Shown one piece after another: positions 1 to 60,650 of a stretch of DNA of 64,000 nt (within the stretch, counting starts at the first letter, position 1; the number at the start of each line of letters is the position of its first letter). The position numbers and the translations under genes are program-made. The DNA lies in IMG/VR virus record IMGVR_UViG_3300046511_000152; one strand, given 5' to 3'. Source of the stretch: an uncultured virus (IMG/VR IMGVR_UViG_3300046511_000152) (Duplodnaviria; Heunggongvirae; Uroviricota; Caudoviricetes). The notes beneath the pieces are model-generated. The model saw nothing but the letters and a program-made list of their open reading frames with translations, did no database searches and had not been told where the DNA came from.

Positions 1-219
1 AGGACAGAGGAGCCCTCCTTGTACGGGGAGATTATCTTGATCGCTTCGGGGTTGAGGTATGCGGTATGGGTAGTCCCGGGCTGCTCGAACCGCATGATCT
101 GCGTGACCTTGATCACGGGTACATCCTCCCTTGGTAACGAATCAGCCGCCGAAGGTGACGGTAGAGGTAGACGCATGCAGCGAACGAGTTACCTCGTGCG
201 ATGGCGCGGTAGTACTTCC

Positions 220-4024: not shown

Positions 4025-4462
4025 TCATCGGATCGTCCGCCGCTCGGTCATCCGGAAGCGTCTCAGCACCTTGTCCACCGTCGTCGGGGGCACTCCCACC
4101 GCGAGTGCGATGTCCACGATCCGGTGCCCCTCGTTACGCAGGGTGATGATCGTGTCGATCTGGGCCTCGGTGAGGCGAGTGTTGAAGACGGGCTTTCGAC
4201 GGTTGCGGCTGCTCACTTCGGGCGTGACCCACCGGACGTTCCCCGGCTCGTACCCACGATCCCGGTCGATCCGGTCAAGGACCGTCTTCGGTGGGCGTGC
4301 CCCGATGTGTCGGTAGAAGACCTCGAAGTCCATGAACTCGGGTGCGATCCCCACACCGGCTGCTCCGTAGTAGCGGTAGTTGACCGCCCTCGGATTCAAG
4401 CACCGCTGCTTCATGTTGGTCCACGAACAGTACTCTCGGATGTGCTCCTGTCGGAATGTCAC
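4025..4462 (-). CDS. HNH-type homing endonuclease-like protein with C-terminal HTH
   Basis: W..MKQRC.NP...Y..YG and LDRID...GYEPGNVRW signature; C-terminal IVDIALAVGVPPTTV. Confidence 0.8.
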   Translation of the reverse strand: MTFRQEHIREYCSWTNMKQRCLNPRAVNYRYYGAAGVGIAPEFMDFEVFYRHIGARPPKTVLDRIDRDRGYEPGNVRWVTPEVSSRNRRKPVFNTRLTEAQIDTIITLRNEGHRIVDIALAVGVPPTTVDKVLRRFRMTERRTIR

Positions 4463-4762
4463 TTGTTACCACCCTTGGCCGCTCGGGCCTTCTTGAGTGT
4501 CTCGATCAACTGCGCCTTGCGCTCCGGGGTCCTCATGATGATGTTGAACAGCGCGTCATCGAACTCGTTCTGTGTCACTCTTCCTCCTCGGTTTCGACCA
4601 TGCTCCACACGTGGATGGAGGCGGCCCGTTCTTTGTCCTTGACAATCCGCATGTCGCGGTCGATCCGCCCAGCCCGCATCGCTGCCTTCTGGCTCGGGTA
4701 GATCGAGTGATTGAAGTAGTGCTTGGCCGACACGTCAGGCCACGACAGCGAGTACTTGAACA

Positions 4763-5170
4763 TCAGTTCCCGGCACCACGGAGCCTGCTGTGCCACGATG
4801 TAGCAGACGTGAACTTCACCGCCCACGCCCAGTACTCGATGATCTCGGTGGCCTGCTCGGGGAACATCCGGGTCAGGGCCTCGAACGCCTGCCGTGCGTG
4901 CTGGATGAAGTGATGGGACACCGTGAAGGAAGCCTCCGGTTGGACAATGTAGAAGAGGCGAGCGTTCTCCATCGTGTTCACGTAGGCTCCGTTGCTGACG
5001 TGTGAGAACTGATCCAACCCGTTTTCCCCAGCCAACGTATCGGACTTGTCCATCACGAACCCCCTGATCACCGCTGTGAACAGAGACTTGAGATTCTGGT
5101 CATCGTTGTCCGGCCCTCGCAGGGCGGTCATGATGAGGTATCCATCGCGGTCGTTTGTGTCGAGCTTCAT
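4763..5170 (-). CDS. hypothetical protein
   Basis: Coupled ORF starting MKLDTNDRDG with RBS. Confidence 0.65.
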   Translation of the reverse strand: MKLDTNDRDGYLIMTALRGPDNDDQNLKSLFTAVIRGFVMDKSDTLAGENGLDQFSHVSNGAYVNTMENARLFYIVQPEASFTVSHHFIQHARQAFEALTRMFPEQATEIIEYWAWAVKFTSATSWHSRLRGAGN

Positions 5171-5598
5171 GATTTCTTGCTCCTCGCGGCCCGTGCCTTC
5201 TTCAACGTCTCCACAAGCTGGGCCTTGCGCTCGGGTGACATGGGTTTCCGGGGCTTCTTCACCTTCGGCTCCGGTCGGGCTTCGACCGCTGCCTTCTTCT
5301 CGGCTTGCTTCTCGTGGGCGTTGGGGCAGTTGGGTGCCGTGTGCCCAGACTCGCGGCAGATGGAGCACGCACGCTGCGAGGGCGGAGACGCATCCTCGGC
5401 GAGCTTCTTGTAGTGCATCTTCCGCTTGATGACACCCCGGGCCTCCTCCTTCTCGTCGGCCGCCTCCAGCTTGAGCCCGTCACCATGCTCGACCAGCCGG
5501 TTGATCACGTCGTTCACCGGACCGGTGATCCGACGCAGTTCCACCAGCAGTTCGGCGGCGGCGTCCAGCAGCTTGTCACGATCCTCAGTTGCGCTCAT
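5167..5598 (-). CDS. basic protein with CCHC zinc knuckle
   Basis: CSICRESGHTAPNC = C-x2-C-x4-H-x4-C; Lys-rich tail. Confidence 0.75.
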   Translation of the reverse strand: MSATEDRDKLLDAAAELLVELRRITGPVNDVINRLVEHGDGLKLEAADEKEEARGVIKRKMHYKKLAEDASPPSQRACSICRESGHTAPNCPNAHEKQAEKKAAVEARPEPKVKKPRKPMSPERKAQLVETLKKARAARSKKS

Positions 5599-6029: not shown

Positions 6030-6566
6030 TCAGTCAGTTGGCGAATAGTGCCCATCATCTTCTCCTTGGTCATCATCATCATCGAGGAACGGGACATCCG
6101 GACTGCTCCCGCTCTTGTAGATGTCATCGAGCAGCTTGTTGAAGCCCTCCGATGACATCACACCCACTACGCCCTCGCCAGCCACGTGCTGGGTCAGGAA
6201 CTTCATCTGCTTCGGCGGCGGTGTGGGCTTGGTGTGGTGTGCGGCCTTCATGTACTCGCGCACGTAGCGCCGGTTCACGCGCGTCCAGCCCACGTAGTCG
6301 AACTGGGTGGGCGTGACGTACGGCGAGTGGTCGTGCGTCGGGTCACCGCATGGCATCGGGAACACCTTGATCAGCATGATCGGTGGCGCAACCGCCAGCA
6401 CCCGGACTACGCTGCCCTCGAAGGAGCGGTCGTGCTTGGATGCGAAGCGTCCCCGCGAGTCGGTGCCCGTGATCAGCGGCCCCTTCGCACACATCAGGTA
6501 CTCACCCGGTCGGACTTCGTCGATAGATTCGATCATGTTGATGTATAGGTGCGTTGAGAAGTGCAC
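6030..6566 (-). CDS. hypothetical protein
   Basis: GTG start inferred from operon packing; acidic C-terminus. Confidence 0.6.
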   Translation of the reverse strand: MHFSTHLYINMIESIDEVRPGEYLMCAKGPLITGTDSRGRFASKHDRSFEGSVVRVLAVAPPIMLIKVFPMPCGDPTHDHSPYVTPTQFDYVGWTRVNRRYVREYMKAAHHTKPTPPPKQMKFLTQHVAGEGVVGVMSSEGFNKLLDDIYKSGSSPDVPFLDDDDDQGEDDGHYSPTD

Positions 6567-6856
6567 CTCATACCCCTCCGTTCTGGAACAGAGCTTCGTT
6601 CTCGCCGATGACCCCCACGTAGAACCACGACTTGTCGGGGACCTCGATGACTGGGAATGTCTTCGCTTCTTGGAAGAGTACCACAACCTCGGTGCCGATT
6701 GCAACCGGAACCTCGACACCGACGATTCGCTGGGCTGCGTCGTCCACGCGGTGGCCGTACAGGCGCACCGGATGAGCCTTCTCACCCTTCCGGCGCGGAC
6801 TCTTACTGTCCTCGACACCGATCAACTGGATCAGGATCGGGTCCTTGATGGGCATC

Positions 6857-18291: not shown

Positions 18292-18873
18292 ATGCCCCGC
18301 ATCATCTTCTTCGACATCGAAACCCGCAAAGGCCCCAAGACACTCTGCCCCACGGACGAGCAGGCCGGATGGGAACGACTCCGGCGCGGCGAGGGCGGCA
18401 TCTCAGCCCTGTGCATCTACGACACGAAGCTCTCGTGGATGTACGCCTACGATGACACCCGCAAGGCCCTCGCGACGGCGGCCAAGCATCTCGAAGCGGC
18501 GGAACTGGTGGTCACTCACACCGGCTCCACATTCGATGTCCCCTGTATCGAAGGTCTGCTCGGACGGAAACTCGTCCTGCGGAACCACTACGACATCTAC
18601 GCGGAAGCGAAGAAGGCGTGCGCCCTCCGGGGCATCGTCACCTCAGTCGGTGACCTGAAGTTGGACACCCTCTGCCGGAAGAACATCGGGCGGGGCAAGA
18701 TCGAGCACGGCTCCCACGCGGAGCAACTCCTCGCAGACGGCCGCCTCGGTGACCTCTTCAACTACTGCATGGACGATGTACACCTCACCCACGACCTCTA
18801 CCGCTTCATCTGCGAGCACGGGGGCGTCCACATCAACGGGCACGGTTGGCTGCCCTTGGAGCTACCACAATGA
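18292..18873 (+). CDS. RNase H-like/DEDD 3'-5' exonuclease-fold protein
   Basis: FFDIET, H.G..FDVP and YCMDDV motifs. Confidence 0.8.
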   Translation: MPRIIFFDIETRKGPKTLCPTDEQAGWERLRRGEGGISALCIYDTKLSWMYAYDDTRKALATAAKHLEAAELVVTHTGSTFDVPCIEGLLGRKLVLRNHYDIYAEAKKACALRGIVTSVGDLKLDTLCRKNIGRGKIEHGSHAEQLLADGRLGDLFNYCMDDVHLTHDLYRFICEHGGVHINGHGWLPLELPQ

Positions 18874-20840
18874 TGAACGATCCACTGACTTCCCACGGCA
18901 GTATCGAGATCGTCCGCGCGATTGGTGACGAACCATATCGTATGCAGATGATCGACGTGGTGGTCTCGCGGATGAAACTGTCCGAGATGTACTTCACGGG
19001 CGTACGCCAGCGGTTCCCTCGGCTCTATGACCTGTGGCGCGGTACGTGGACAGGGCGCTTCCACCCGCACAAGAACAACGCGCACATCCCCCTCATCTAC
19101 TCCGCGATCTGGTCCGACGCTGCCCGCAAGGCCGCGACCTCGCTCTCGACCTACCCCATCATGGCCTTCATTGGCTACGGTCCTGACGACTCGCCCGTCT
19201 GCCGCAAGTGGGAGGGCCTGATCGCCGCGCAGATGAAGGACGACGACGCCTTCATGAAGGAAGTGGACAACATCGTGTCCGCCGACCTCTATGGTGTCTC
19301 GATCCAGCAGCACGGCTGGTGCCGCAAAGAGGAGTACCAGATTCTCGAATCCATCGACCGGATGCCGATCACGGGCAAGGTCGTGCGCTCCATCAAGAGG
19401 GGCAACGTCGTCACCTTCGACGGCCCCACGACCGAGCAGATCGACCTCCTCGACTTCTTCCCGCAGCCCGGTGTCAAGCGTCTCCGCGACATGAAGTGGG
19501 TCGTTCGCCGCTTCTTCCTCGACTGGGACGACGTGCTGTACATGGCGAAGCAGGGCATCTACGACGCCCGCGAGGTGGGACGCATCGCTCGCGAGGGCGG
19601 CGTCAACTCCCAGATCGCCGACCAGCAGTCCATGATCCGCCGCTTCGCCACCCGCGCTGGCATGGACGACGAGTCCATCCGCTGGATGGACAAGTACGCG
19701 CGGCCTATCGAAATCCTTGAGTTCTGGGGTGAGGTGCCCGGCGAACTCTCACCGGACGGCGAACTGAAGCGTGTCATCACGGTCGCCAACCGCCGCTACA
19801 TGCTCCGCAACAAGCCGAATCCGTTCTGGCACAAGAAGATTCCCTTCACGTCGTTCTCCCCCACGCCTGACCCGCACTACTTCTACGCGCCGGGCAAGGG
19901 TGAGATCATCGAGAAGCTCCAGATCATCGGCAACCGCTACCTCAACCAGTCGCTCGACGCGGCTGACCTCGTCGTGGACCCGATGTGGTTCTACGACCGT
20001 GCTGCAAACCTGAACACGAAGGCCCTGTACGCCCGCCCCGGTCGCTTCATCCCAGTGGATGGCAACCCGGCGAACGTCGTGGCCGCGATGCAGAAGGACC
20101 TCGCCGGGCTCACCGTCGCGGACCAGCGCATCTCGATGGTCAGCCAGTACGCACAGCAGGGCACGGGCATCATCGACGACGCAGTTCAGGGGCTCGGTGG
20201 CGACAGCCGCCAGACGGCTCGTGAGTTCGTCGGTCGCAGAGAGGCAGCGGGTAACCGCCTCGGCCTCGAAGCCCGTATCTACGAGGAGATGTCCCTCGAA
20301 CCGCACGCGAACATGATGGTCGCCATGGATAAGCAGTTCCTCGACACGCCCGCCGAGATCAAGATTCTCGGGGACGGCGCTCGCATCGACCCTGTGACGG
20401 GCAACCCGATCAGCGGCACGCGCGAGATCGTCACGGACGAGGACATGCTTATGAGCTACGCCGCCCGCGCGATGGGCGCGTCGATGGCCCTGTCCAAGAG
20501 CACTCAGCAGCAGAACATGATGGGCCTACTTCAGGCCCTCGGCACCCCGGTCGGTCAGTCAGTGATGGGCGCGATCAATGCGGTCAACTTCTGGCGGTCG
20601 ATCTTCCGGACGTTCGAGGTCCCGAACATGAACGAAATCTTCAACGGTGAGGGTCAGGCCGACTTTAACGGGCTCATCAACCAAGCCAACAACGGGCAGC
20701 CGGGTGGACTCGCGGCCGTTCCTACTTCCGGTCAGGTTGTCGCTGGCGGTGCGGGCGCTCTGCCCCTGCCGGGCGCACCGGGCACGAGTGGTCCGGGCGC
20801 TGTCCAGAACACGCTTCCTCCAATGCAGGGAGCGGCGTAA
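18870..20840 (+). CDS. portal protein
   Basis: ~656 aa; position after terL; IEILEFW and NPFWH...PF segments; Gln/Gly-rich tail typical of podovirus portals. Confidence 0.85.
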   Translation: MMNDPLTSHGSIEIVRAIGDEPYRMQMIDVVVSRMKLSEMYFTGVRQRFPRLYDLWRGTWTGRFHPHKNNAHIPLIYSAIWSDAARKAATSLSTYPIMAFIGYGPDDSPVCRKWEGLIAAQMKDDDAFMKEVDNIVSADLYGVSIQQHGWCRKEEYQILESIDRMPITGKVVRSIKRGNVVTFDGPTTEQIDLLDFFPQPGVKRLRDMKWVVRRFFLDWDDVLYMAKQGIYDAREVGRIAREGGVNSQIADQQSMIRRFATRAGMDDESIRWMDKYARPIEILEFWGEVPGELSPDGELKRVITVANRRYMLRNKPNPFWHKKIPFTSFSPTPDPHYFYAPGKGEIIEKLQIIGNRYLNQSLDAADLVVDPMWFYDRAANLNTKALYARPGRFIPVDGNPANVVAAMQKDLAGLTVADQRISMVSQYAQQGTGIIDDAVQGLGGDSRQTAREFVGRREAAGNRLGLEARIYEEMSLEPHANMMVAMDKQFLDTPAEIKILGDGARIDPVTGNPISGTREIVTDEDMLMSYAARAMGASMALSKSTQQQNMMGLLQALGTPVGQSVMGAINAVNFWRSIFRTFEVPNMNEIFNGEGQADFNGLINQANNGQPGGLAAVPTSGQVVAGGAGALPLPGAPGTSGPGAVQNTLPPMQGAA

Positions 20841-25005: not shown

Positions 25006-25431
25006 ATGTCCGAATCTGCTGACATCAAGATGTCCCGCATCCGGCGTGACAACAACGCCGAACTCAAGGTGCTCGCCAGCATCCTCCAGCCCGAGGTGCT
25101 CAAGCAGCACGTCCCGCGCCTGATGGATGTTCAGGAAGCCCGCGTCGCCCAGCGCAACATCGAGCGGCAGATGGCGGCCTTCCGCGACTTCGAGAAGGGC
25201 ACCCAGTTCCAGCACGTGGCCCAGATCGACCCCTCTGTCTGGTCGGCCATCCTCGAAATCTTCGCGAAGATCGACCCCGTGACGAACGAGCCGATGCACG
25301 ACGGACTGCTGTACAAGGAGGACTCGCGCGGGAACGTCGTCATCAACCGCCCGTTTTTCTACACCCTACTCGCCTACCTCCAAGCACATGGTTACGAGTG
25401 CGACATGCGTACCAAGAAGCGGCTCGTCTAA
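25006..25431 (+). CDS. hypothetical protein
   Basis: ORF with RBS; HVAQID segment. Confidence 0.7.
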   Translation: MSESADIKMSRIRRDNNAELKVLASILQPEVLKQHVPRLMDVQEARVAQRNIERQMAAFRDFEKGTQFQHVAQIDPSVWSAILEIFAKIDPVTNEPMHDGLLYKEDSRGNVVINRPFFYTLLAYLQAHGYECDMRTKKRLV

Positions 25432-25446
25432 GAAAGGCGGCACACA

Positions 25447-26748
25447 GTGGCTGATCACAGGCTCAACATCTGGACTACGAACCAAGTGCGGAACCCCGGC
25501 GCGTGCCAGTACTTCCGCATCAACACCCCCCTTAACTGCCTGTACGACCAGTTCGGCGTCGAGAGCTACGAGGACACGGGTGGCAACCCCGAGATGGACC
25601 TCGCAGCCATGTATCACGCCGACGTGATCCAGTACTACTCGCTGAACGGCCCCGGCACGCTGCACAAGATCAAGTCCGTGAACGCCATGGCTCCGGCCGA
25701 ACGTGACGGTGAACTCAAGGTTCCCCCCGCGTTCATCTACGACACCGATGACAACGCTGACTTCGTCCACCCGTTCAACTCGACCTTCGTGCACATGGGC
25801 GTGCGCGCGTATCCCGACGCCCACCTGCTGAAGCCGGGTGAGCAACTCATGTGGAAGGACTACCTCGGCAACGAGAACGGCTGCTGGATCGACCAAGAGA
25901 CGACCTCCGGACCGCTCACCTTCGACATCGCCCGCAACCTCTGGCTCATGAAGGTCCGGCACGAGATCATCCGCCAGTGCGACGGAGCGACCGTCTCCTC
26001 GCCTGCGCTCGCGTCCTACTTCAAGGACGTGATCGGGCAGCGGTTCGTCCACGTCTACCCGAACACGATCATCCCTGAGCACTACAAGTTCCCGTTCCGC
26101 TCAGTCCGGCAGAACCCGGACGAGATTCGCATCATCTGGCAGGGCTCCGCGTCCCACATCGTGGACTGGTATCCGCTCCGGAACGCAATCCGCGAGGTCG
26201 CCCTCAAGTACCCGAAGGTCAAGTGGGTCATCTTCGGCGAGTGGTTCCCCTTCGTCCACGACTCGATCCCCGACACACAGGTCGAACACCATGACTGGGT
26301 GGACTACAAGACGTACAAGCTCTACCGCTCGCTGCTCGACTGTGACATCAACCTCTGCCCGCTCGTCAACAACGCCTTCAACGTCTGCAAGTCAGCCATC
26401 AAGTGGTACGAGGCGGCAATGATGCCGGTCCCCGAGGCCACGCTGGCGCAGAACAGCGGTCCGTACCACGAGATCAAGGACGGCGAGACCGGCCTGCTCT
26501 TCGACACCCCCACTGAGTTCGTGGAGAAGCTGTCACTCCTGATCGAGGACGCGCAGCTTCGTCGTCGTCTCGGTGAGGCGTCCCATGAGTGGGTCATGAA
26601 CAACCGCCTCCCGCAGCACACGACCCCGGGCCTCTTGGAGTTCTACGAGGACACGCGGCTCCGGCAGAAGCGCAACCGCACCGGACAGAGCAAAATCATC
26701 CGGGCGACCGACAAAGACATCCAGACGCTCGCGAGGGCACGGAGATAA
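25447..26748 (+). CDS. GT-B fold glycosyltransferase (GT4-like)
   Basis: YDTDD, I.WQGSASH..D, DI.LCPL..NAFN.CKS.IKWYE and GETGLL motifs. Confidence 0.85.
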   Translation: MADHRLNIWTTNQVRNPGACQYFRINTPLNCLYDQFGVESYEDTGGNPEMDLAAMYHADVIQYYSLNGPGTLHKIKSVNAMAPAERDGELKVPPAFIYDTDDNADFVHPFNSTFVHMGVRAYPDAHLLKPGEQLMWKDYLGNENGCWIDQETTSGPLTFDIARNLWLMKVRHEIIRQCDGATVSSPALASYFKDVIGQRFVHVYPNTIIPEHYKFPFRSVRQNPDEIRIIWQGSASHIVDWYPLRNAIREVALKYPKVKWVIFGEWFPFVHDSIPDTQVEHHDWVDYKTYKLYRSLLDCDINLCPLVNNAFNVCKSAIKWYEAAMMPVPEATLAQNSGPYHEIKDGETGLLFDTPTEFVEKLSLLIEDAQLRRRLGEASHEWVMNNRLPQHTTPGLLEFYEDTRLRQKRNRTGQSKIIRATDKDIQTLARARR

Positions 26749-45705: not shown

Positions 45706-46821
45706 TCAGAAGTGGTTCCGGGGGTCTTCGCCGGGGTGGGCATCCCTCCACTCCTTGATCATTTGCAATGTGAGCGCGTACCCGGCCGTGTCGGTCAGGT
45801 TGTCACGCTTGGCCGCGTTCCGGTGCCGGGACTGCTTCACGCAGATCATCGTCTGCCCGATGTCCTCGGCCTCCAGTCGCGCACCCGGCTTCAGCTTGTC
45901 CCGCAGCAACGCGGTCAGCATGTCGGCAGAGCGGGTCATGTCGAAGATCGGATGGCCGTAGCTCGCGCCACGGTCGCCCAGCACGAGGCGGTGCGCTTCC
46001 TGCGCGACGCTCTCAGTCGGTGTCGTGTGGTAGATCGGATCGATCTTGATGTCGATGCAGTCCAGCTTCGACGTAGACGGGTTACCCGTGACAGGGATGA
46101 ATCGGCCCGGTCGTGAGTAGAGTCCCTCCACATCCAACGTCCCCGGCTGCTTAGGAAACAGTTCCATCTGCTCCAACGTAGCATCCTTCATCTGTGCTGA
46201 GACGATCTCTTCATTCCGCTCTTTCCGCTCCTCAATCGCCTGCCGCACGTACATCACCGCGTCGAGCAGTTCCTGATAGAGGTCCACGAGTGCCTTGCGG
46301 CCGTTCTGGGTCTTCAGTTCCGTGCCGTACTTGGCGATGCCCTGCTCCCTGCGCTCCTTGATGTCGGCGAGCACGAGGTCGGTCACGCTGGTCTTGCCCT
46401 CGCTGGGGTCTTGCTGTGGTCTGGTTGTGTCACCCATGGCTTTCTCCTTCTGGCATGTTTCACACCACATCTCATGCCACGCGAGCATCGCGGCTTCTTT
46501 CGGACGAGGCTTCGGCAGCGGGGGAACACACGAGTGCCCGGTGTCCCCCGGCTTGAACTTGTACCCGCACACTGTGCACGGGGGGAACGTGTTCACGGTA
46601 CAGTACGGGCAGACCGTGCTACCGGGTCGCCCACACACCTGACACCGCATCACGTTCATCGGCTCTTCAACGATAGTGATCGGTTTGTTCCAAGCGATCC
46701 CACCCCCCGAGGGCCACAACGAAAGTGTCCCCACTGGTTTGTACTTGGTGAACCGTCCCTCGAACAGTCCCCGGAACTTGTCGTACGCCCCGAGGATCGG
46801 GTGCTTCTTCCGGAGGCCCAT
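45706..46821 (-). CDS. MazG-like nucleotide pyrophosphohydrolase / DUF6378-like fusion with Cys-rich N-terminus; possible internal start at 46437
   Basis: R...G..KYG..L...DLYQELLDA.MY; GDR...YGHP and K.SR...DN..D.AGYA; strong RBS before M at 46437. Confidence 0.7.
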   Translation of the reverse strand: MGLRKKHPILGAYDKFRGLFEGRFTKYKPVGTLSLWPSGGGIAWNKPITIVEEPMNVMRCQVCGRPGSTVCPYCTVNTFPPCTVCGYKFKPGDTGHSCVPPLPKPRPKEAAMLAWHEMWCETCQKEKAMGDTTRPQQDPSEGKTSVTDLVLADIKERREQGIAKYGTELKTQNGRKALVDLYQELLDAVMYVRQAIEERKERNEEIVSAQMKDATLEQMELFPKQPGTLDVEGLYSRPGRFIPVTGNPSTSKLDCIDIKIDPIYHTTPTESVAQEAHRLVLGDRGASYGHPIFDMTRSADMLTALLRDKLKPGARLEAEDIGQTMICVKQSRHRNAAKRDNLTDTAGYALTLQMIKEWRDAHPGEDPRNHF

Positions 46822-49784: not shown

Positions 49785-50315
49785 TTACGGGGCCTTACGG
49801 GCGATACCCACTTGTCGCAGTGCTACCAGCTTGGCATGGCGCTTCGCCATCCGATCACTACGCCACAGGCGACCTCCCACACCGGGGGTCCTGTTGAGCC
49901 ACCACAGGAACCGCAAGGGCAGGATGAACCTCCACATATTCCTGATCCAGACCATCACCTCTTCGTCCGTGAAGGCCGCGTCCCCACGCTTCGCGTTGCA
50001 GCCGGGGCACAGCGGTCTGTAGTTCCCATCGTTCACACCGGGGGTGATGTGGTCCAGTTGAAGGCGGCGGCCGTTCTGCCGTCGCCCGAGGAACTTGAAC
50101 CATGGGCCGTCGCGGAAGTACTTCCGCAGGATGTAGTTCGGTATCCCGCAGATGTCACACCGTGTCTCCTCAGCCATGAGGATCGGCCCCCACTTCTGGG
50201 CCTCGTCGTTACTCAGCCCGTGGTGATCCCTCAGCCGCTTGATCGCCCCCGTCAGGCTGGCGTTCCGCGCCAGCATCCGAAGACGTTCCTTCTCCCGGTC
50301 CGGTGCTCGTCTCAT
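49785..50315 (-). CDS. HNH endonuclease
   Basis: CDICG...LQLDHITP...N.RPLCPGCNAKRG. Confidence 0.8.
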   Translation of the reverse strand: MRRAPDREKERLRMLARNASLTGAIKRLRDHHGLSNDEAQKWGPILMAEETRCDICGIPNYILRKYFRDGPWFKFLGRRQNGRRLQLDHITPGVNDGNYRPLCPGCNAKRGDAAFTDEEVMVWIRNMWRFILPLRFLWWLNRTPGVGGRLWRSDRMAKRHAKLVALRQVGIARKAP

Positions 50316-50967
50316 GGACACTCCCGCGAACTGAGTCCGCTGTCTGGTTCGCGAGTTCCGGTGGAACACCGAACTCCACGAGTGCCGCCGCCAACTGCTT
50401 GACGACATGATCGAGAGCCAAGTCCACCGCGTACTGCTTCATCCCGCGAACGTCAGCCTCGGGGATGGCGAACTCCAGACCATCGATGTACAGCACGTTG
50501 CGGAAGAAGTCGAAGCCCTCGACCTTACGGAAGTCGGGGAGCTTCACCATGGGGCCTGTTGCCGGTGGCTGCGACGGGGGTGCACTCAGCCGCACCACCC
50601 GCTGCGGAGCCAACAGACCGAAGTCTGCACCGTTATGTGCATCAAGCTCGGCCTGTGTCGGCCTCGGCTGGTCGGGCATCCCGGCCGCCTGCGCCTCCGC
50701 GAGTGAACCATACGGCCCATCCTCGTCGGGGGTGGGTGGGAGGATGCCAAGCTCTCTCGCCCTCGCGTCCCGGGCTGCGACCTCTTCCGGAGACAGGGGT
50801 GTTGGGTTGTTCATGGCAGCAGACCGAACCGTAGTCCCCTGACCAACCGTCACTGGCTGGTCAGTGAGACTACGTCCGGCAGGCATACCACTCTCCGCGT
50901 TGATCCGCTGTGCTCTGCGAATCATCTGCGTCATTGCATTGTCCTTCTCGAACGCTGGTGAAGGCAT
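50209..50967 (-). CDS. hypothetical protein
   Basis: ORF with AGGAGG RBS; disordered N-terminal half. Confidence 0.7.
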   Translation of the reverse strand: MPSPAFEKDNAMTQMIRRAQRINAESGMPAGRSLTDQPVTVGQGTTVRSAAMNNPTPLSPEEVAARDARARELGILPPTPDEDGPYGSLAEAQAAGMPDQPRPTQAELDAHNGADFGLLAPQRVVRLSAPPSQPPATGPMVKLPDFRKVEGFDFFRNVLYIDGLEFAIPEADVRGMKQYAVDLALDHVVKQLAAALVEFGVPPELANQTADSVRGSVHETSTGPGEGTSSDAGAERQPDGGDQAAEGSPRAE

Positions 50968-51085: not shown

Positions 51086-51700
51086 CTAGGCCGCAGGCGC
51101 GTCGGGCAGGTAGCTCTCGACGTTCGTGCGACGGTCGTGCTTGCGCTTCTCGCTCTTGTTCGGGGCGTCCTTCAGGTTCATGATGACCGACTTGCCAACC
51201 AGCGGCGAGTCCGTACCATTCAGCGTACCCTTCGGCGGGAAGACACTGTTGAGCAGGCTGGCCTTCAGGCCCGGGGTCTTCTTCGGGGTGAAGCCAGTCG
51301 CCGCGAACAGCGACGTGAGGGCCTGAACCGCGAGGTTGTGCGGGAACGCGGATTTCATGGCCGCATCCTCGGCCGTACCCTGACCCAGCAGGAGGCGGAT
51401 GTTGAGCGTGTGACGCGCCCACGTACGCTTCTCCTCGTTGGGGAAGCCAGCGCGGACCTTCATCTGGACGACGGCGTTGATCTTGTTGGTATCCTCGCCA
51501 GCGCCCTCACGCCACGCAGCCTCGATGACCGCACCCTCGGACCACGAGTAGAACACATCGTCGTTCTTCTTGGACGTGTTCTTCTCCGCGTCTGCCGGGA
51601 CGACGAACGGAGCGCCCTGATCGAGGGCAGCAGCCGCAGCCTTCTGGGCACCGTCGCTGATGTCTACGAAGTCTGGGGTCGGGATGTTCTGGTCAGCCAT
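51086..51700 (-). CDS. putative single-stranded DNA-binding protein
   Basis: Position after the Sak4-like ATPase; LVGKSV...K...TNV ending; function inferred from context. Confidence 0.5.
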   Translation of the reverse strand: MADQNIPTPDFVDISDGAQKAAAAALDQGAPFVVPADAEKNTSKKNDDVFYSWSEGAVIEAAWREGAGEDTNKINAVVQMKVRAGFPNEEKRTWARHTLNIRLLLGQGTAEDAAMKSAFPHNLAVQALTSLFAATGFTPKKTPGLKASLLNSVFPPKGTLNGTDSPLVGKSVIMNLKDAPNKSEKRKHDRRTNVESYLPDAPAA

Positions 51701-52529
51701 TGGTGTTCTCCTTGTTGAGCTTGTTCACTTCGGACACGTACTTCACCCAGTAACTGGACGGATTCCTGTCGAGGTAGACCTTCGCGAGCTTGTTCTCGCC
51801 TTCCTCGTCGGAGGTCCTGATCTTGCTGATGAACTTGCCGTCGTTCTCGGTGATGGCAACCACCACGTCGGACGGGGCATCGTCACCCGGCACGAGGATC
51901 GTCTCGCGGATCAGGCGGATGACGGTGTTGAACTGCGCGGGAATGTACTCGGTCATCGCACGTCCCGGGTGAGCCGGACCGCCGACGCTGTGCACGTTCT
52001 CGATGATCTTCACATCCTCGTGCATGACGAAGATGATGTGCATGTTGCGCTGGTTCTTGAACAGCATGTCCAAGTACCCACGCGACAGTGACTCGATGGC
52101 CTGATAGTCACCACGGTTGGGGATCGCCTGACCACCCTTCTTCGGGTCGCCGATCACGTAGTGCTTCTCGCGGTCCATCGTCTGCGCGTTGGCCGCGTAG
52201 CTGATGGTGTCGAGGGCGACCTTGGTGTAGGTGTCCACGACGAGAACGCCGATCTCAGGATCGACAGCCTTCCAGTCCTGCATACAGAACTGCATGAAGT
52301 TGACGGTCGGATCGTCACCCTCGGGGATGATGGGGATGATACGCGCCCGCTTCGCGAGGCCCGTGGAGCCCAGTGACTCGGAGTTGGTGTCGGCCGCGTA
52401 GTACGCGATCTTGCCCCACTCCTCGGGGACGGAGAGCGCGAGCCGGGTCTTCCCGATGCCCGCCCTACCGTACACGATGATCCGCTCCTTCGTCGCCGGA
52501 GCCGCGTCCTTCAGGATTCGCAAACCCAT
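51693..52529 (-). CDS. Sak4-like AAA ATPase (recombinase)
   Basis: IIVYGRAGIGKT Walker A, LVVDT Walker B, IIFVMHE. Confidence 0.85.
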   Translation of the reverse strand: MGLRILKDAAPATKERIIVYGRAGIGKTRLALSVPEEWGKIAYYAADTNSESLGSTGLAKRARIIPIIPEGDDPTVNFMQFCMQDWKAVDPEIGVLVVDTYTKVALDTISYAANAQTMDREKHYVIGDPKKGGQAIPNRGDYQAIESLSRGYLDMLFKNQRNMHIIFVMHEDVKIIENVHSVGGPAHPGRAMTEYIPAQFNTVIRLIRETILVPGDDAPSDVVVAITENDGKFISKIRTSDEEGENKLAKVYLDRNPSSYWVKYVSEVNKLNKENTNG

Positions 52530-56599: not shown

Positions 56600-57223
56600 T
56601 CAGCACCCCTTCGGCAACTGATCCGTCCGGGGGCGGATGATGGACAACACCTTGCGGACGAAGATCGGCTCGGGGAGCATCCGCATCACCGCGCGTGCCC
56701 ACAGGAAGTCGTGGATGTTCTTGTCCTTGTCGAACTGCTCCCACGTCGGAAGCCCCTCGATGTTGGGCATGACGAGCATCGGGGTCCCAGTGTTGCAGAG
56801 CCTGATCTCAGGGTCAGCCCACAGCAAGCGGCCATCACCGTACTCCATCTGGAAGACGAGGAGTTTGTCCGGGTAGCGAACGATTCGATCCCTCGCTGCG
56901 GCGAGTGCGTCGGCAACGAAGATGTCATCGTCGTCACAGAACATCAGGTGTGTCCCCTTCGAGATGGCGATACCGTGGTCTCGCTGTGAGGCCCCGCTGT
57001 TGCGCGTGCGCTCCTCAGTGCGTGAGAAGATCAGGTTCGCTCCGGTGGGGATGCCATCGAGTGGGATGGCAGGCCAGTAGTCACCCAGCCCATCATGCAC
57101 CACGATCAGTTCGTCCCCGGCCCGAAGCTGGCCGAGGATGCTCATGACGGTGGCCTTCAGGCTCAGGCGTCCCTTCGTCGGGACGATGACACTAATGCGG
57201 ATGTCCTTGTCATCGAAGTCCAT
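56600..57223 (-). CDS. GT2 glycosyltransferase
   Basis: ISVIVPT..R, ELIVVHDG and HLMFCDDDD motifs. Confidence 0.85.
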   Translation of the reverse strand: MDFDDKDIRISVIVPTKGRLSLKATVMSILGQLRAGDELIVVHDGLGDYWPAIPLDGIPTGANLIFSRTEERTRNSGASQRDHGIAISKGTHLMFCDDDDIFVADALAAARDRIVRYPDKLLVFQMEYGDGRLLWADPEIRLCNTGTPMLVMPNIEGLPTWEQFDKDKNIHDFLWARAVMRMLPEPIFVRKVLSIIRPRTDQLPKGC

Positions 57224-57436
57224 TCTTGTCCTCCCTGCTCTGTGCCTCCATCATGATCTCGTGGAACATCCGGCTGATGGCCTGCATGTACATGCTGGTG
57301 GTTGCCGGTTCCTCCTCGTGATCGGTGACGATGGCTTGTCGGTAGAACGTCATGCCCTGAACCTCGGCCCGGACCTCGACGCGGCGGGTGTCACCAGTGT
57401 ACCGGGTGATGCGCTCGACTGCAACGAAGAAGCGGC

Positions 57437-58165
57437 TCATTGAGGCACCCCGTCCCACAGTTGGAACTGGCGAGCATACCGCAACTCGGGTACGTCAACC
57501 CCGATGATGTTCATGATCTGCTCCCGTGTGGGCTTGATGATCGAGATGATCTCGGGGTGCCAGACGACCGGACAACCTGTCGCTTGATGGTAGTTGTGCA
57601 TCACCCAGAAGTCCTCACTGATGTTCGCTACCCCGTTCGAGGCAGAGCGGTCCCACTTCAGGAGGGGGCTATTCGGCATGACGTACATCGAGCCACCGAT
57701 GTTGCCCAACCGGATCAGGCCCTCATGGCCCCACATGACGCGCTCGTTGTTGACCACGACTGAGTCGGGGCTGGTCCACTGGCCCTTCACACCGTACTGC
57801 ATCCGGAAGATGTGCCATGCGGTGGGGTTCTCAGCCGCTGCCAGTCTCCCTCGCGAGAGTGCGTCAGGAAGGAACAGGTCGTCGTCATCGATGCACATGA
57901 GATGCGTGCCCTTCGCCACGGCCCGGCCTGCATCACGCTCGGGTCCACCGCTCGGGTAGCCGGGCTGGGTGCTCAGGGTCGCACCTGTCGTTGGGTCACA
58001 CCCACCGTTGTCGAACGGCACCCACACGAACTCCCGGTCGGCCTCGGGTTTCCGGGGACTCACCACGATCAGTTCGTCTTCGGGTGATAGCTGCGAGAGG
58101 ATACCCTTCACCACACGCTCTAGCGACGGCCGCCCACACGAGGGCACGATCACACTGAGACTCAT
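57437..58165 (-). CDS. GT2 glycosyltransferase (paralog of 56600-57223)
   Basis: LSVIVPS.GR, DELIVV, GTHLMCIDDDD and ED motifs. Confidence 0.85.
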   Translation of the reverse strand: MSLSVIVPSCGRPSLERVVKGILSQLSPEDELIVVSPRKPEADREFVWVPFDNGGCDPTTGATLSTQPGYPSGGPERDAGRAVAKGTHLMCIDDDDLFLPDALSRGRLAAAENPTAWHIFRMQYGVKGQWTSPDSVVVNNERVMWGHEGLIRLGNIGGSMYVMPNSPLLKWDRSASNGVANISEDFWVMHNYHQATGCPVVWHPEIISIIKPTREQIMNIIGVDVPELRYARQFQLWDGVPQ

Positions 58166-58872
58166 AGTTCCCCCCAGAGGCGGTCGAGGTTTCGGACCAC
58201 GCCGATCTCGCCCGTGCTCATCTGTGCCATCTTCATGTAGTGAATCTGTCTCATCCGCTCCATCTCAGCCCCGAGGTTGTGGCGCTCGTGAGGCATGTGG
58301 ACAGCGGTGATATCCGGGTGGTGGAAGAACTTGACGCCCATCATGTTCAGGCGGAAGGCAAGGTCATCATCCTCGTAACCGTACTCGGTGAAGTCCTCGT
58401 CGTACCCTCGGAGGAAGCGGAGGGCCTTGGTGTCCATGCCACCGAAGAGGAAGTAGGGGCGCTGGCTGCCGGGAACCTCGACACCGTTCTCGGTGATGCG
58501 GGCGAGGTGTGCGTGGTTGTCCTGAGCGACCATGTGGTCGTACAGCTTAGACAGCGCGTCGTGCGAGGGCACGATCCCAGTGTGACACATCACGGTGAAC
58601 CGCCCCTTGGAGCGGAGGATACCGGCGTTGAGGGGCCGCGCCGGGTTGAGCCACCGCGTACCACCGCGCTCGATCCGGAAGTACTCCACGTCGTACGGAA
58701 GTTCCTCCAGCACGGCGGGCACGTTCTCGATGCTGGAGTCATCCACCACGATGAACTGGTGGCTCACATCGATGCGCGGTCCGTACATGAACGCCGCCAT
58801 CGTCTGGCGGAAGTGCTCGACCCGGTTGTGCACCGGGACGACCACGGTCAGGTCATAGGTTGCTGCTGACAT
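58162..58872 (-). CDS. GT2/GT7-like glycosyltransferase
   Basis: VVVPVHNR, IVVDDSS, LNAG and GYDEDF..YGYEDDDL motifs. Confidence 0.85.
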   Translation of the reverse strand: MSAATYDLTVVVPVHNRVEHFRQTMAAFMYGPRIDVSHQFIVVDDSSIENVPAVLEELPYDVEYFRIERGGTRWLNPARPLNAGILRSKGRFTVMCHTGIVPSHDALSKLYDHMVAQDNHAHLARITENGVEVPGSQRPYFLFGGMDTKALRFLRGYDEDFTEYGYEDDDLAFRLNMMGVKFFHHPDITAVHMPHERHNLGAEMERMRQIHYMKMAQMSTGEIGVVRNLDRLWGEL

Positions 58873-60650
58873 ATGAACTCCTTGATGGCCGTGAGGACCT
58901 CGTCCTTGGTCATGACGTAGCCCGTGGGGTCGTAGACATCGTAGTTGTGCCACATGCGGTACGTGCTGCGCCAGTCAGGGATGTGGAACAGGTCCACAAG
59001 TTCCCGCACCGTCACTGCCTCGGTCACGATGTTGCGCTCCATGATGTCCTGATCCCGGGTCCACTGGATGTCGGACCACAGCCGGGTCAGCGGATACCAC
59101 TGGAACTTGGAGTTGATCGACTCCTCGTGAATCTTCGTCGGGTAGTGCAGGAGATCGTAGATCAGGTTCTTCTTCAGGCCGGGGCCGAACAGGCCGGGCA
59201 GGCGGATGACGCGGCACTTCGGGAAGTGGTCCTTGGCCCACCGCTCCAAGTCCTTCCGGTGCCGACCGTAGTCGGTGGACGGGAGGTTGTAGTACGGATG
59301 ATCGAGGGCATCGATGGTGCTGAGGAGGATGAACTCATCAGCCGTCGTCTTGCCCAGCATCTCCTTCAGCCGTTCGACTGCCTTCCAGTCTTCGTTCGGA
59401 TGCAGGTTCGCCTCCCACTTCGTTCCACTGGGGGCAGCACACACGATCTGATCGTAGTGGCCGGGAGCCAGAGGGCGGGTGGAGTTAGACAAGTCTGTCC
59501 AGCGCCCTTCCGCCATGAGCGAGTTACCGACAAGCCCAGTGAACCCCACCAAGGCTCTCCGTCCACGCCGGAGTACGCCAGTCTTGCCCTCCTGCATCCA
59601 CTCCCCTCGCTCGATCTCATCGACGGCATCGTAGAACGAGTTGAACTTGGAACCCAGTATTGAAATGACCCGAGGAGACTCGTTCGCATACTCCCACAAG
59701 ATCGGTCGTCCATCGTTCTCCTCGTTCTGCGCCAGTACGACGCGGGTGGTCCACAGCGAGCGGAGGTACTTGGCCTCGGCCATGATGGGGACGAAGCGGG
59801 CAGCGTCGGTCTGCATCTCTGCCCACTTGGTGAGCTTGTCCAATGGAGGGTGAGCCTCGTCGTTGAACCACTCGAAGTGCGGGGTGTGCGTGACATGCGT
59901 GAGTGCGTGCAGTCCGTTGGGCGGGTACTTCATGACCGACCAGTACGGCCCGTCCATCACGGTGATGTCCGTATCCTGAAGCTCGCGAGGGATCGAGCAC
60001 AGCGCGACCTCGACCCACTCCTTCTTCAGCTTGGTCTTGAGGTCCACGGTCTTGTCGAGGTTGGCGTACGTGCAGTTGAAGACGTAGCGCCCGTGCATCA
60101 GATACCAGTACTTGTCCATCGTGACCTGAACCTCGACGTACTTGCCGGTGTCCACGAGCGGGAGGCCCGTCCCCTTGATGACAGGGATGCGAGCGATGTG
60201 AATCTGCTCACGGATCATCTCACGGAGGATGTTCACGTTGAAGCTGATCTCCTCGACCTGATACACAGCCTCGATCAGCTTGGGATCGAACAGGCTCGGG
60301 ACAGTGGGCACGCGGTCCACCGGGGCACCGATCTCCCTCGCGACGCGCTCGAACTCGTCCGGGCTCGTCTTGCTGTCCTTCGCGATGGCGTACAGGTGCT
60401 CGACGTTGGGCACCATGGCCGCAGCGTGGTCCACGAGGAAGCGACGGTAGTGCTTGGCCGCTGACAGGGCGGTGGCTGCGAAGCGGGGGTAGTGCATCCC
60501 GCTGTGCACCCGGGCCTGATTCACCTCGGTTGCACCGTGCATGAGACTGTCGGGCTCGATGATGCAGACCTTGAGGCCCACGTTGTGGAGGGCCAGAGCG
60601 ACCTTGCATCCGTAGAATCCCCCTCCCAACACAATCGCGTCGTAGTTCAC
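58848..60650 (-). CDS. FAD-dependent oxidoreductase fused to an NAD-dependent epimerase/SDR-like domain
   Basis: N-terminal GGGFYG and NQARVH.G.HYPR; C-terminal GFTGLVG, LSTID, YG.HR..LE and RLPGLFG. Confidence 0.85.
   Translation of the reverse strand: MNYDAIVLGGGFYGCKVALALHNVGLKVCIIEPDSLMHGATEVNQARVHSGMHYPRFAATALSAAKHYRRFLVDHAAAMVPNVEHLYAIAKDSKTSPDEFERVAREIGAPVDRVPTVPSLFDPKLIEAVYQVEEISFNVNILREMIREQIHIARIPVIKGTGLPLVDTGKYVEVQVTMDKYWYLMHGRYVFNCTYANLDKTVDLKTKLKKEWVEVALCSIPRELQDTDITVMDGPYWSVMKYPPNGLHALTHVTHTPHFEWFNDEAHPPLDKLTKWAEMQTDAARFVPIMAEAKYLRSLWTTRVVLAQNEENDGRPILWEYANESPRVISILGSKFNSFYDAVDEIERGEWMQEGKTGVLRRGRRALVGFTGLVGNSLMAEGRWTDLSNSTRPLAPGHYDQIVCAAPSGTKWEANLHPNEDWKAVERLKEMLGKTTADEFILLSTIDALDHPYYNLPSTDYGRHRKDLERWAKDHFPKCRVIRLPGLFGPGLKKNLIYDLLHYPTKIHEESINSKFQWYPLTRLWSDIQWTRDQDIMERNIVTEAVTVRELVDLFHIPDWRSTYRMWHNYDVYDPTGYVMTKDEVLTAIKEFICQQQPMT

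What the first reader, a model, noticed from the sequence alone, without database searches (positions are those of the whole stretch)
46078..46122. A portal-protein peptide is duplicated inside an unrelated nucleotide-metabolism protein
Seen: portal (20025-20069, +) encodes LYARPGRFIPVDGNP. The linker between the MazG-like and DUF6378-like parts of ORF 45706-46821 (-) encodes LYSRPGRFIPVTGNP, 13/15 identical, with weaker similarity upstream (LNTKA versus LDVEG). Eight of the 13 identical residues use different codons, so the peptide is conserved rather than the DNA. Established: the Avs4 STAND defence protein senses phage portals. Inference: this segment is probably in the portal clip region, and the copy may be an earlier-expressed decoy against a portal sensor or a docking motif for terminase or portal.
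Basis: partly seen in the sequence, partly recalled or inferred. Interest (0 to 1): 0.75.

Follow-up and report, generated by a model that had tools for sequence, protein, structure and literature searches.

The report
Portal-peptide mosaic in phage accessory proteins
A group of uncultured soil phages carries short copies of the most conserved pieces of the portal (DNA-packaging gate) protein, shuffled into floppy regions of several unrelated proteins and kept by selection, which may be bait for a host factor that recognises portals, although the purpose is untested.

Summary
The 13/15 match is real and is one of four portal-like pieces in this ORF. Among homologues, 28 of 39 linkers hold portal-like segments above the 99th-percentile shuffle null, from at least six portal regions in varying order. 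19 of 39 match the window's portal, against at most 1 of 39 for each of 31 other proteins. Such pieces also sit in-frame in unrelated genes of related phages, including a 50-aa mini-gene; terminase and polymerase donate none. Three linker words are 24/24 identical between two phages whose synonymous sites are saturated, so the peptides are under selection. The piece maps to the portal clip strand. Best reading: a swappable cassette of captured portal epitopes acting as bait for a host portal-binding factor (0.45). My searches found nothing like it in print. This scan noted similar mosaics in giant T4-like phages (unchecked notes).

The parts
45706..46821 (-). Host ORF, 371 aa: variable N-terminal extension, helical hairpin domain, disordered linker, DUF6378. 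Its start overlaps the PolA stop by one base; a second start with a good ribosome-binding site at 46437 would give a 243-aa form
   Evidence: both lengths are in the protein collection
46738..46785 (-). Portal-like piece 1 in the N-terminal extension (ORF aa 13-28, like portal aa 61-76)
   Evidence: score 45 against a 99th-percentile null of 42.6; homologues score 48, 59 and 71
46222..46410 (-).
   Evidence: PHROG hits of unknown function and phrog_139 C-terminal part; helices H18-37 and H49-84 of the 243-aa model
46183..46212 (-). Portal-like piece 2 (ORF aa 204-213, like portal aa 123-132, end of a helix); closer to the family consensus than to the own portal
   Evidence: score 51; own-portal rank 30 of 55
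46156..46170 (-). Five residues fitting the beta-clamp-binding pattern Q-aliphatic-x-[L/M]-[F/L]; binding not tested; could also be a shortened portal aa 197-209 piece
   Evidence: 8 of 39 linkers carry such a motif; pattern from PMC11139829 passages
46078..46122 (-). Portal-like piece 3, the finding: clip strand copy (ORF aa 234-248, like portal aa 394-408)
   Evidence: (score 105)
46036..46065 (-). Portal-like piece 4 (ORF aa 253-262, like portal aa 370-379, stem-to-clip junction), out of portal order; weak alone (score 36, below the 95th percentile) but recurrent in homologues
45775..46005 (-). DUF6378 domain (PF19905), function unknown
   Evidence: E 4.9e-12; 38 of 38 members
18846..20840 (+). 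Portal gene (SU10/P22-like podovirus type), the donor family
20025..20069 (+). Clip segment of the portal, the piece most often copied
19026..19073 (+). Portal aa 61-76, counterpart of piece 1
19212..19241 (+). Portal aa 123-132, counterpart of piece 2
19953..19982 (+). Portal aa 370-379, counterpart of piece 4
20208..20240 (+). Portal aa 455-465, start of the long helix after the low-confidence (tunnel) loop; the second most copied piece in relatives, not copied in this window's linker
19842..19877 (+). Portal aa 333-344, copied in linkers of relatives (P0003, P0006, P0007, P0011)
50209..50967 (-). Unnamed 252-aa ORF whose homologues carry portal pieces in their variable middle (G002, G005, G006, G013, G020); the window's own copy has no significant piece

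Best explanation
The linker is a hypervariable, disordered cassette of short linear motifs. Most are 8-26-residue in-frame pieces of the portal's conserved motifs, picked up from portal genes of this phage group, reshuffled, swapped between phages, and kept by selection on the peptide. Shown: origin from the portal family, in-frame bias, shuffling, fast turnover, spread to unrelated genes, peptide-level conservation in one trio of phages. Inferred: capture by recombination, expression with the replication genes before the portal is made, and the function. Most likely the pieces are bait. They occupy a host protein that binds unfolded or monomeric portal (a defence sensor or a sensing chaperone) without fully triggering it, and different hosts or receptor alleles favour different pieces, which would explain the turnover. 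The descriptive part I put at about 0.85; the confidence given is for the bait function.
For: 19 of 39 linkers hit the portal at E<0.005 against at most 1 of 39 for 31 other proteins. 28 of 39 exceed the 99th-percentile shuffle null. 11 of 14 linker DNAs hit in the coding frame against 2 of 70 other frames. Six-frame scan of 11 genomes: 7 hits at score 65 or more against 0 with the reversed profile; all 11 hits at 60 or more are the clip or the TAREF piece. Same-depth profiles of TerL, PolA, exonuclease, GT1 and three others give 0 non-family frames at 65 or more, portal gives 7. A 50-aa gene in G012 is mostly portal aa 370-404. Window vs L002: 24/24 residues identical over three words, 13/22 same codons against 11.8 expected at saturation, with spacers of different length, while the flanking domains keep 46/53 and 55/81 codons. 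Cores a few hundredths of a substitution per site apart carry different words. Portals are triggers of Avs4, Avs11 and RAZR, and peptide-level sensing of structural proteins exists (HigC-gpV; Lit and CapRel as cited).
Against: No binding or function was shown and the host is unknown. Avs sensors bind core folds through extended interfaces and RAZR assembles on rings, so short peptides may be poor decoys. In the TAC case a fragment triggers defence rather than blocking it. The gene is in only 7 of 38 records with a related portal (4 of 9 near-complete); 11 of 39 linkers have no significant piece; close relatives lack the clip piece. The selection test rests on three phages and on words delimited after seeing them. 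Linkers are phylogenetically non-independent. An exact clip 8-mer also occurs in 6 loci of one unrelated protein family, and RMTAREF in 4 unrelated proteins, so short hits alone can be chance. The single-sequence own-portal test was noisy (reversed scores up to 82).
Confidence: 0.45

Rival explanations
1. Near-neutral relic. The linkers tolerate anything and repeatedly take up portal DNA by homeologous recombination (the phage encodes a Sak4-like annealing protein); once one piece is there, homology keeps later exchanges in frame. The apparent conservation is inherited from the conserved source genes.
For: Two of 12 words are closer in DNA to another phage's portal than a recoding null gives (L006 48/54, p=0.002; window 40/45, p=0.043). 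Patchy presence. Sak4-like gene at 51693-52529. Some pieces are long and colinear with the portal (P0026, 44-48 aa).
Against: The three-word arrangement exists in no portal yet is 24/24 identical at synonymous saturation. Capture is concentrated on two of many equally conserved portal stretches. Other conserved genes are not donors. A stand-alone mini-gene exists.
Confidence: 0.2
2. The pieces dock on the phage's own portal or its partners (terminase, adaptor), for instance by adding a strand to the clip sheet, and so bring these proteins to the packaging motor or pace portal ring assembly.
For: The two commonest pieces are a clip strand and the helix after the tunnel loop; that these form subunit contacts in portal rings is recalled, not tested. 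The linker also holds a clamp-binding-like motif, so it looks like a docking platform. One host gene lies next to TerL.
Against: The pieces do not track the own portal. They come from distant parts of the fold in changing order and sit in unrelated proteins. Close relatives do without them.
Confidence: 0.15
3. Weapon or exclusion device against related phages: the peptides poison assembly of a competitor's portal ring in co-infected cells.
For: Pieces often resemble other phages' portals more than the own one.
Against: The own portal carries nearly the same motifs (13/15), so self-poisoning is expected. Resemblance to the consensus may simply be ancestral.
Confidence: 0.1
4. Shared short motifs for a common phage or host partner (chaperone, protease), partly arising by convergence rather than by capture.
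For: 10 of 12 words are no closer in DNA to any of 55 portals than random recoding. M before TAREF in 8 of 17 linker copies and 0 of 122 portal copies; RMTAREF starts unrelated proteins.
Against: Matches of 15-26 residues, and a 35-44-residue colinear match in two genes, are too long for convergence. At least six different pieces all map to one protein.
Confidence: 0.1

Closest known systems
Portal-sensing defences Avs4, Avs11 (bioRxiv 10.64898/2026.01.04.697583, passages and section 11) and RAZR (PMC13017515, passages)
   Same: They make the portal a recognised trigger and give a reason for portal decoys; Avs recognition appears to target monomers.
   Different: They are host receptors that read folds or rings. 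No portal-fragment decoy is described in the passages read. The primary Avs4 paper was not held; that Avs4 contacts the clip is recalled only.
TAC systems, HigBAC: ChAD element and lambda gpV peptide compete for the HigC chaperone (bioRxiv 10.1101/2024.02.24.581848, passages)
   Same: A disordered extension with short motifs and an unfolded piece of a phage structural protein bind the same partner.
   Different: Host-encoded; the likeness is a pattern of aromatic residues, not copied sequence; the fragment activates defence.
Fused phage anti-defence sponges Tad2/Acb4/Sequestin (bioRxiv 10.1101/2025.07.12.664507, passages) and MazG-like Atd1 (bioRxiv 10.1101/2022.06.09.495361, abstract)
   Same: Small helical phage domains fused by linkers into multi-purpose anti-defence proteins; DUF6378 gave a weak structural match to Tad1 (Z 5.3, 51 residues).
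   Different: Neither domain is shown to be a sponge or a MazG enzyme; Z 5.3 is within background; those papers' passages mention no portal pieces.
Beta-clamp-binding motif (PMC11139829, passages)
   Same: The linker's QMELF and the QLDLF, QLELPL, QLELDF of homologues fit the published pentameric or hexameric patterns.
   Different: Only a pattern match in 8 of 39 linkers; no binding test.
Motif-mosaic proteins noted by this scan in giant T4-like phages (e1-5726281, e1-6424097; unchecked AI notes)
   Same: In-frame copies of conserved pieces of the phage's own structural proteins in accessory proteins.
   Different: Different phage group; many donor proteins there, almost only the portal here; not a published family and not tested by me.

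Membership tests
DUF6378 (PF19905) | Profile match above the curated cut-off | tested here: met
   46.4 bits vs 27.1; 38 of 38 members
MazG-like all-alpha NTP pyrophosphatase | Profile match to a MazG-type family | tested here: not met
   no MazG-type family among hits for 38 members in Pfam or NCBIfam at E<=1; no PDB sequence hit
MazG-like all-alpha NTP pyrophosphatase | Fold and acidic metal-binding site | tested here: inconclusive
   two helices with invariant D52, E56, D59; structure searches were dominated by the C-terminal domain and gave nothing above Z 5.5
MazG-like all-alpha NTP pyrophosphatase | Pyrophosphatase activity | not testable with these tools
   needs an assay
Podovirus portal protein (donor) | Profile and fold match | tested here: met
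   PF23899 E 9e-24; Foldseek to VP1, A4, N4, SU10, T7 portals
Anti-Avs / anti-RAZR inhibitor | Binds a portal sensor and blocks its activation | not testable with these tools
   host unknown; no sensor was folded with the peptide
Anti-Avs / anti-RAZR inhibitor | Presents the folded portal core that Avs sensors are described to read | tested here: not met
   linker is coil with pLDDT about 50; pieces are 8-26 aa and out of order
Nucleotide-signal sponge (Tad1-like) | Structural match clearly above background | tested here: inconclusive
   Tad1 at Z 5.3 and 4.8, tied with unrelated helical hits
Beta-clamp-binding motif | Q-aliphatic-x-[L/M]-(x)-[F/L] in a disordered region | tested here: met
   8 of 39 linkers; pattern
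Beta-clamp-binding motif | Binding to DnaN | not tested

The most novel reading that the evidence does not exclude
A phage clade runs a distributed epitope-decoy strategy: it copies the portal's immutable motifs into disordered regions of several earlier-made proteins and into mini-genes, and keeps reshuffling them. This would imply hosts with a diversified set of receptors that read short linear portal epitopes, and the copied words would directly map what those receptors see.
Probability: 0.35. Interest if true: 0.9.

Novelty: categorically new. Interest (0 to 1): 0.72.

Why it matters
Conserved structural proteins are good immune triggers because phages cannot change them. If a phage answers by scattering copies of exactly those motifs as bait, this is an undescribed counter-defence, and the copied pieces are a ready list of the epitopes under host surveillance and baits for fishing out unknown portal receptors. 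Even without that function, repeated in-frame capture of pieces of one essential gene into unrelated genes is an unusual route by which short linear motifs arise in phage proteins.

Tried and rejected
Complex prediction of portal aa 20-560 with linker aa 92-140: no answer, score 0.00, not evidence either way. No RNA holder listed among sequencing runs; contigs of four DNA runs showed no linker variants, and three may be the source of this DNA. Own-portal tracking: rejected. DNA- or RNA-level function of the repeat: rejected as main reading, since copies differ at synonymous sites and keep the portal's frame. One ancient portal fragment decaying in place: does not explain changed order or unrelated host genes. 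Chance: rejected for the long pieces; not for isolated 7-8-mers (of 36 viral loci with the clip pattern, 33 translated to the motif: 15 portals, 5 this family, 4 a second clade gene, 6 one unrelated family, 3 stray frames). One search was spoiled by fragments of true homologues and was redone. The first all-against-all BLAST was swamped by low-complexity shadow frames. Capsid protein as second donor: inconclusive (3 vs 0 at score 65, but 7 vs 6 at 60). Own portal against own genome, single sequence: six other podoviruses gave 42-54 (reversed 45-56); the 11 clade genomes gave 44-83 with the clip or TAREF piece as best hit in 7, but reversed scores reached 73, 78 and 82 in three, so this control is weak. 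No named family for the N-terminal domain in the ESM Atlas and no other named cluster for DUF6378; no PDB fold at E<=0.001. No cultured phage has the whole two-domain protein (0 of 226 records cover 80%). Paper searches; none listed a description of portal-fragment mosaics. The library lacks most subscription papers, and no supplements were read.

Full report
OBSERVATION. The window is a podovirus-like phage genome with SU10-type portal, capsid and adaptor genes and a family A polymerase. The portal at 20025-20069 (+) and ORF 45706-46821 (-) at 46078-46122 share 13 of 15 residues; 5 of the 13 use the same codon; DNA identity is 32 of 45. About 3e-6 such pairs are expected by chance. On an AlphaFold model of the portal (mean pLDDT 69.9, 73 sequences) the segment holds strand E393-396 between the two long stem helices, which is the clip position; the model matches solved podovirus portals. 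The host ORF has DUF6378 at aa 273-349. Its other domain is a two-helix unit of no named family: no MazG-type profile matched any of 38 members and structure searches were uninformative. The linker is predicted as coil with pLDDT near 50. The ORF start overlaps the polymerase stop, and a second start with a ribosome-binding site lies at 46437.

IT IS A MOSAIC, NOT ONE DUPLICATION. A homologue search gave 43 proteins; linkers could be cut from 39. Compared with 32 window proteins, 19 of 39 hit the portal at E<0.005 and at most 1 of 39 hit any other protein. With a profile of 120 portals, 28 of 39 hold a segment above the 99th percentile of 585 shuffles. The segments come from portal aa 121-136, 327-345, 351-359, 369-381, 386-413 and 446-480, with weaker ones at 511-522 and 534-542. 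The six motifs checked lie in the 78th to 99th percentile of portal conservation. Their order varies: colinear in P0026 and P0038, inverted in the window, P0009, P0010 and P0006. The window ORF has four: aa 13-28 (score 45, null 99th percentile 42.6), 204-213, 234-248 and a weak one at 253-262. Eight of 39 linkers also carry a five- or six-residue motif that fits the published beta-clamp-binding pattern. Eleven of 39 linkers have no significant piece.

IT IS CLADE-WIDE AND PORTAL-SPECIFIC. A six-frame scan of the window and ten near-complete related genomes found 7 non-portal hits at score 65 or more against 0 with the reversed profile, and 11 against 3 at 60; all 11 are the clip piece (7) or the TAREF helix-start piece (4). 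Below 55 real and null counts are alike. Besides this family, hosts include the family of window ORF 50209-50967, a Cys-rich gene in G010, two other unnamed genes, and a 50-aa gene in G012 that overlaps its neighbours' stop and start codons and is mostly portal aa 370-404. An N-terminal portal piece precedes a GroES domain in G009. With profiles of similar depth, TerL, PolA, exonuclease, ORF 20853, GT1, primase-like ORF 52585 and the PD-(D/E)XK nuclease gave 0 non-family frames at 65; Sak4 gave 1, a fragment at a locus end; the adaptor gave low-complexity hits matched by its null; the capsid protein was inconclusive. A single-sequence test found nothing in six other podoviruses but was noisy in the clade.

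SELECTION AND ORIGIN. In 14 linker DNAs, 11 hit the portal profile in the coding frame against 2 of 70 other frames. The window and L002 share three words at 24 of 24 residues with 13 of 22 identical codons, where 11.8 is expected at saturation; the spacers differ in length and sequence; L004 differs at 3 of 24 residues. The flanking domains of the window and L002 keep 46 of 53 and 55 of 81 codons. So the cassette, an arrangement found in no portal, is older than or exchanged between its flanks, and its peptides have been preserved. This rests on three phages and on words delimited after inspection. In a tree of the two conserved domains (50 rows, linker removed, bootstrap not converged) near-identical cores carry different words, for example P0021, P0023/P0024, P0030 and P0032. 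The pieces do not track the own portal: it was best in 0 of 8 word-portal pairs, two of which were paired only by sample. The window piece is 40/45 identical in DNA to the portal of L263, and L006 48/54; only these 2 of 12 words beat a recoding null (p=0.043 and 0.002), which gives modest support for DNA capture. The gene is accessory (7 of 38 records, 4 of 9 near-complete), and two phages with 90% identical portals lack the clip piece. Short matches need care: the clip 8-mer occurs in one unrelated family and RMTAREF in four unrelated proteins.

MECHANISM. Shown: portal origin, frame bias, shuffling, turnover, spread, peptide conservation. Inferred: capture by homeologous recombination (a Sak4-like gene is present), expression with the replication genes, and function. 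I favour bait for a host factor that binds unfolded or monomeric portal (0.45). The choice of donor fits, because portals trigger Avs4, Avs11 and RAZR, and fast turnover fits frequency-dependent conflict. Against it, Avs sensors read folds, RAZR reads rings, and in the one well-studied peptide-level case read here the fragment activates defence. Rivals are a near-neutral recombination relic (0.2), docking on the own portal or its partners (0.15), poisoning of competitors' portals (0.1) and convergent motifs for a shared partner (0.1). The host is unknown; the DNA occurs in soil and rhizosphere metagenomes, of which three of four may be its source.

KNOWN VERSUS NEW. It works, if at all, like a decoy or mimic; it is not shown to be a member of any anti-defence family. 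Ten paper searches listed no description of such mosaics; I read passages, one section or abstracts as stated under Closest known systems, plus passages of 10.1101/2024.12.17.629029, 10.1101/2025.06.06.658234, 10.1101/2023.04.06.535777, 10.1101/2024.01.31.578182 and 10.64898/2026.08.25.746987 and the abstract of 10.64898/2026.06.04.730250; no supplements. The primary Avs4 paper was not available. This scan's notes hold no record of this family but two unchecked notes describe similar mosaics in giant T4-like phages; I reached the mosaic reading before seeing them and did not test them.

VERDICT. Real, larger than reported and apparently undescribed as an architecture; function unproven. Interest 0.72; if the epitope-decoy reading holds (0.35), 0.9.

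Noticed in passing
window 4462-4734 (-) and 5167-5598 (-): Two small early-region frames share a 20-residue C-terminal stretch (17/20 identical); the second also has a zinc knuckle.
   Followed up: no
window 6030-6818 (-); L300:12637-13620 (-); L351: Stretches resembling capsid protein aa 182-207 (scores 59 and 64); the G010 gene carries both a portal clip piece and this capsid-like piece. Not above null overall.
   Followed up: partly
window 25006-25431 (+), around 25264: Conserved head-module gene contains a stretch like portal aa 500-522 (score 53-59, also in G011); may be a shared structural motif.
   Followed up: no
L284:8684-8836 (+) (G012): 50-aa translationally coupled mini-gene made mostly of portal stem-end and clip sequence, two genes upstream of TerL; the gene next to TerL has a clamp-binding-like motif and a capsid-like stretch.
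   Followed up: partly
L309:2619-3167 (+) (G009): Phage GroES-like gene with an upstream in-frame piece like portal aa 70-82.
   Followed up: no
window 25447-26748 (+), 56600-58953 (-), 58848-60650 (-): One GT1 gene inside the head module, three tandem GT2 genes and an FAD-dependent oxidoreductase: possible DNA or virion glycosylation pathway.
   Followed up: no
L179:947-1911 (+) (G016); L180 (G018): The two domains are separate adjacent genes in these phages; in G016 the DUF6378 gene's N-terminal extension still carries the clip and stem-end pieces.
   Followed up: partly
linkers P0030, P0032, P0036, P0038 and L273:5155-5916: Methionine before TAREF in 8 of 17 linker copies and none of 122 portal copies; could be a derived shared form or an internal start.
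   Followed up: no
L280:496-1233 (-) (G014), L272:15596-16402 (+) (G006): Frames with distant similarity to the capsid N-terminus, perhaps a second capsid-like gene.
   Followed up: no
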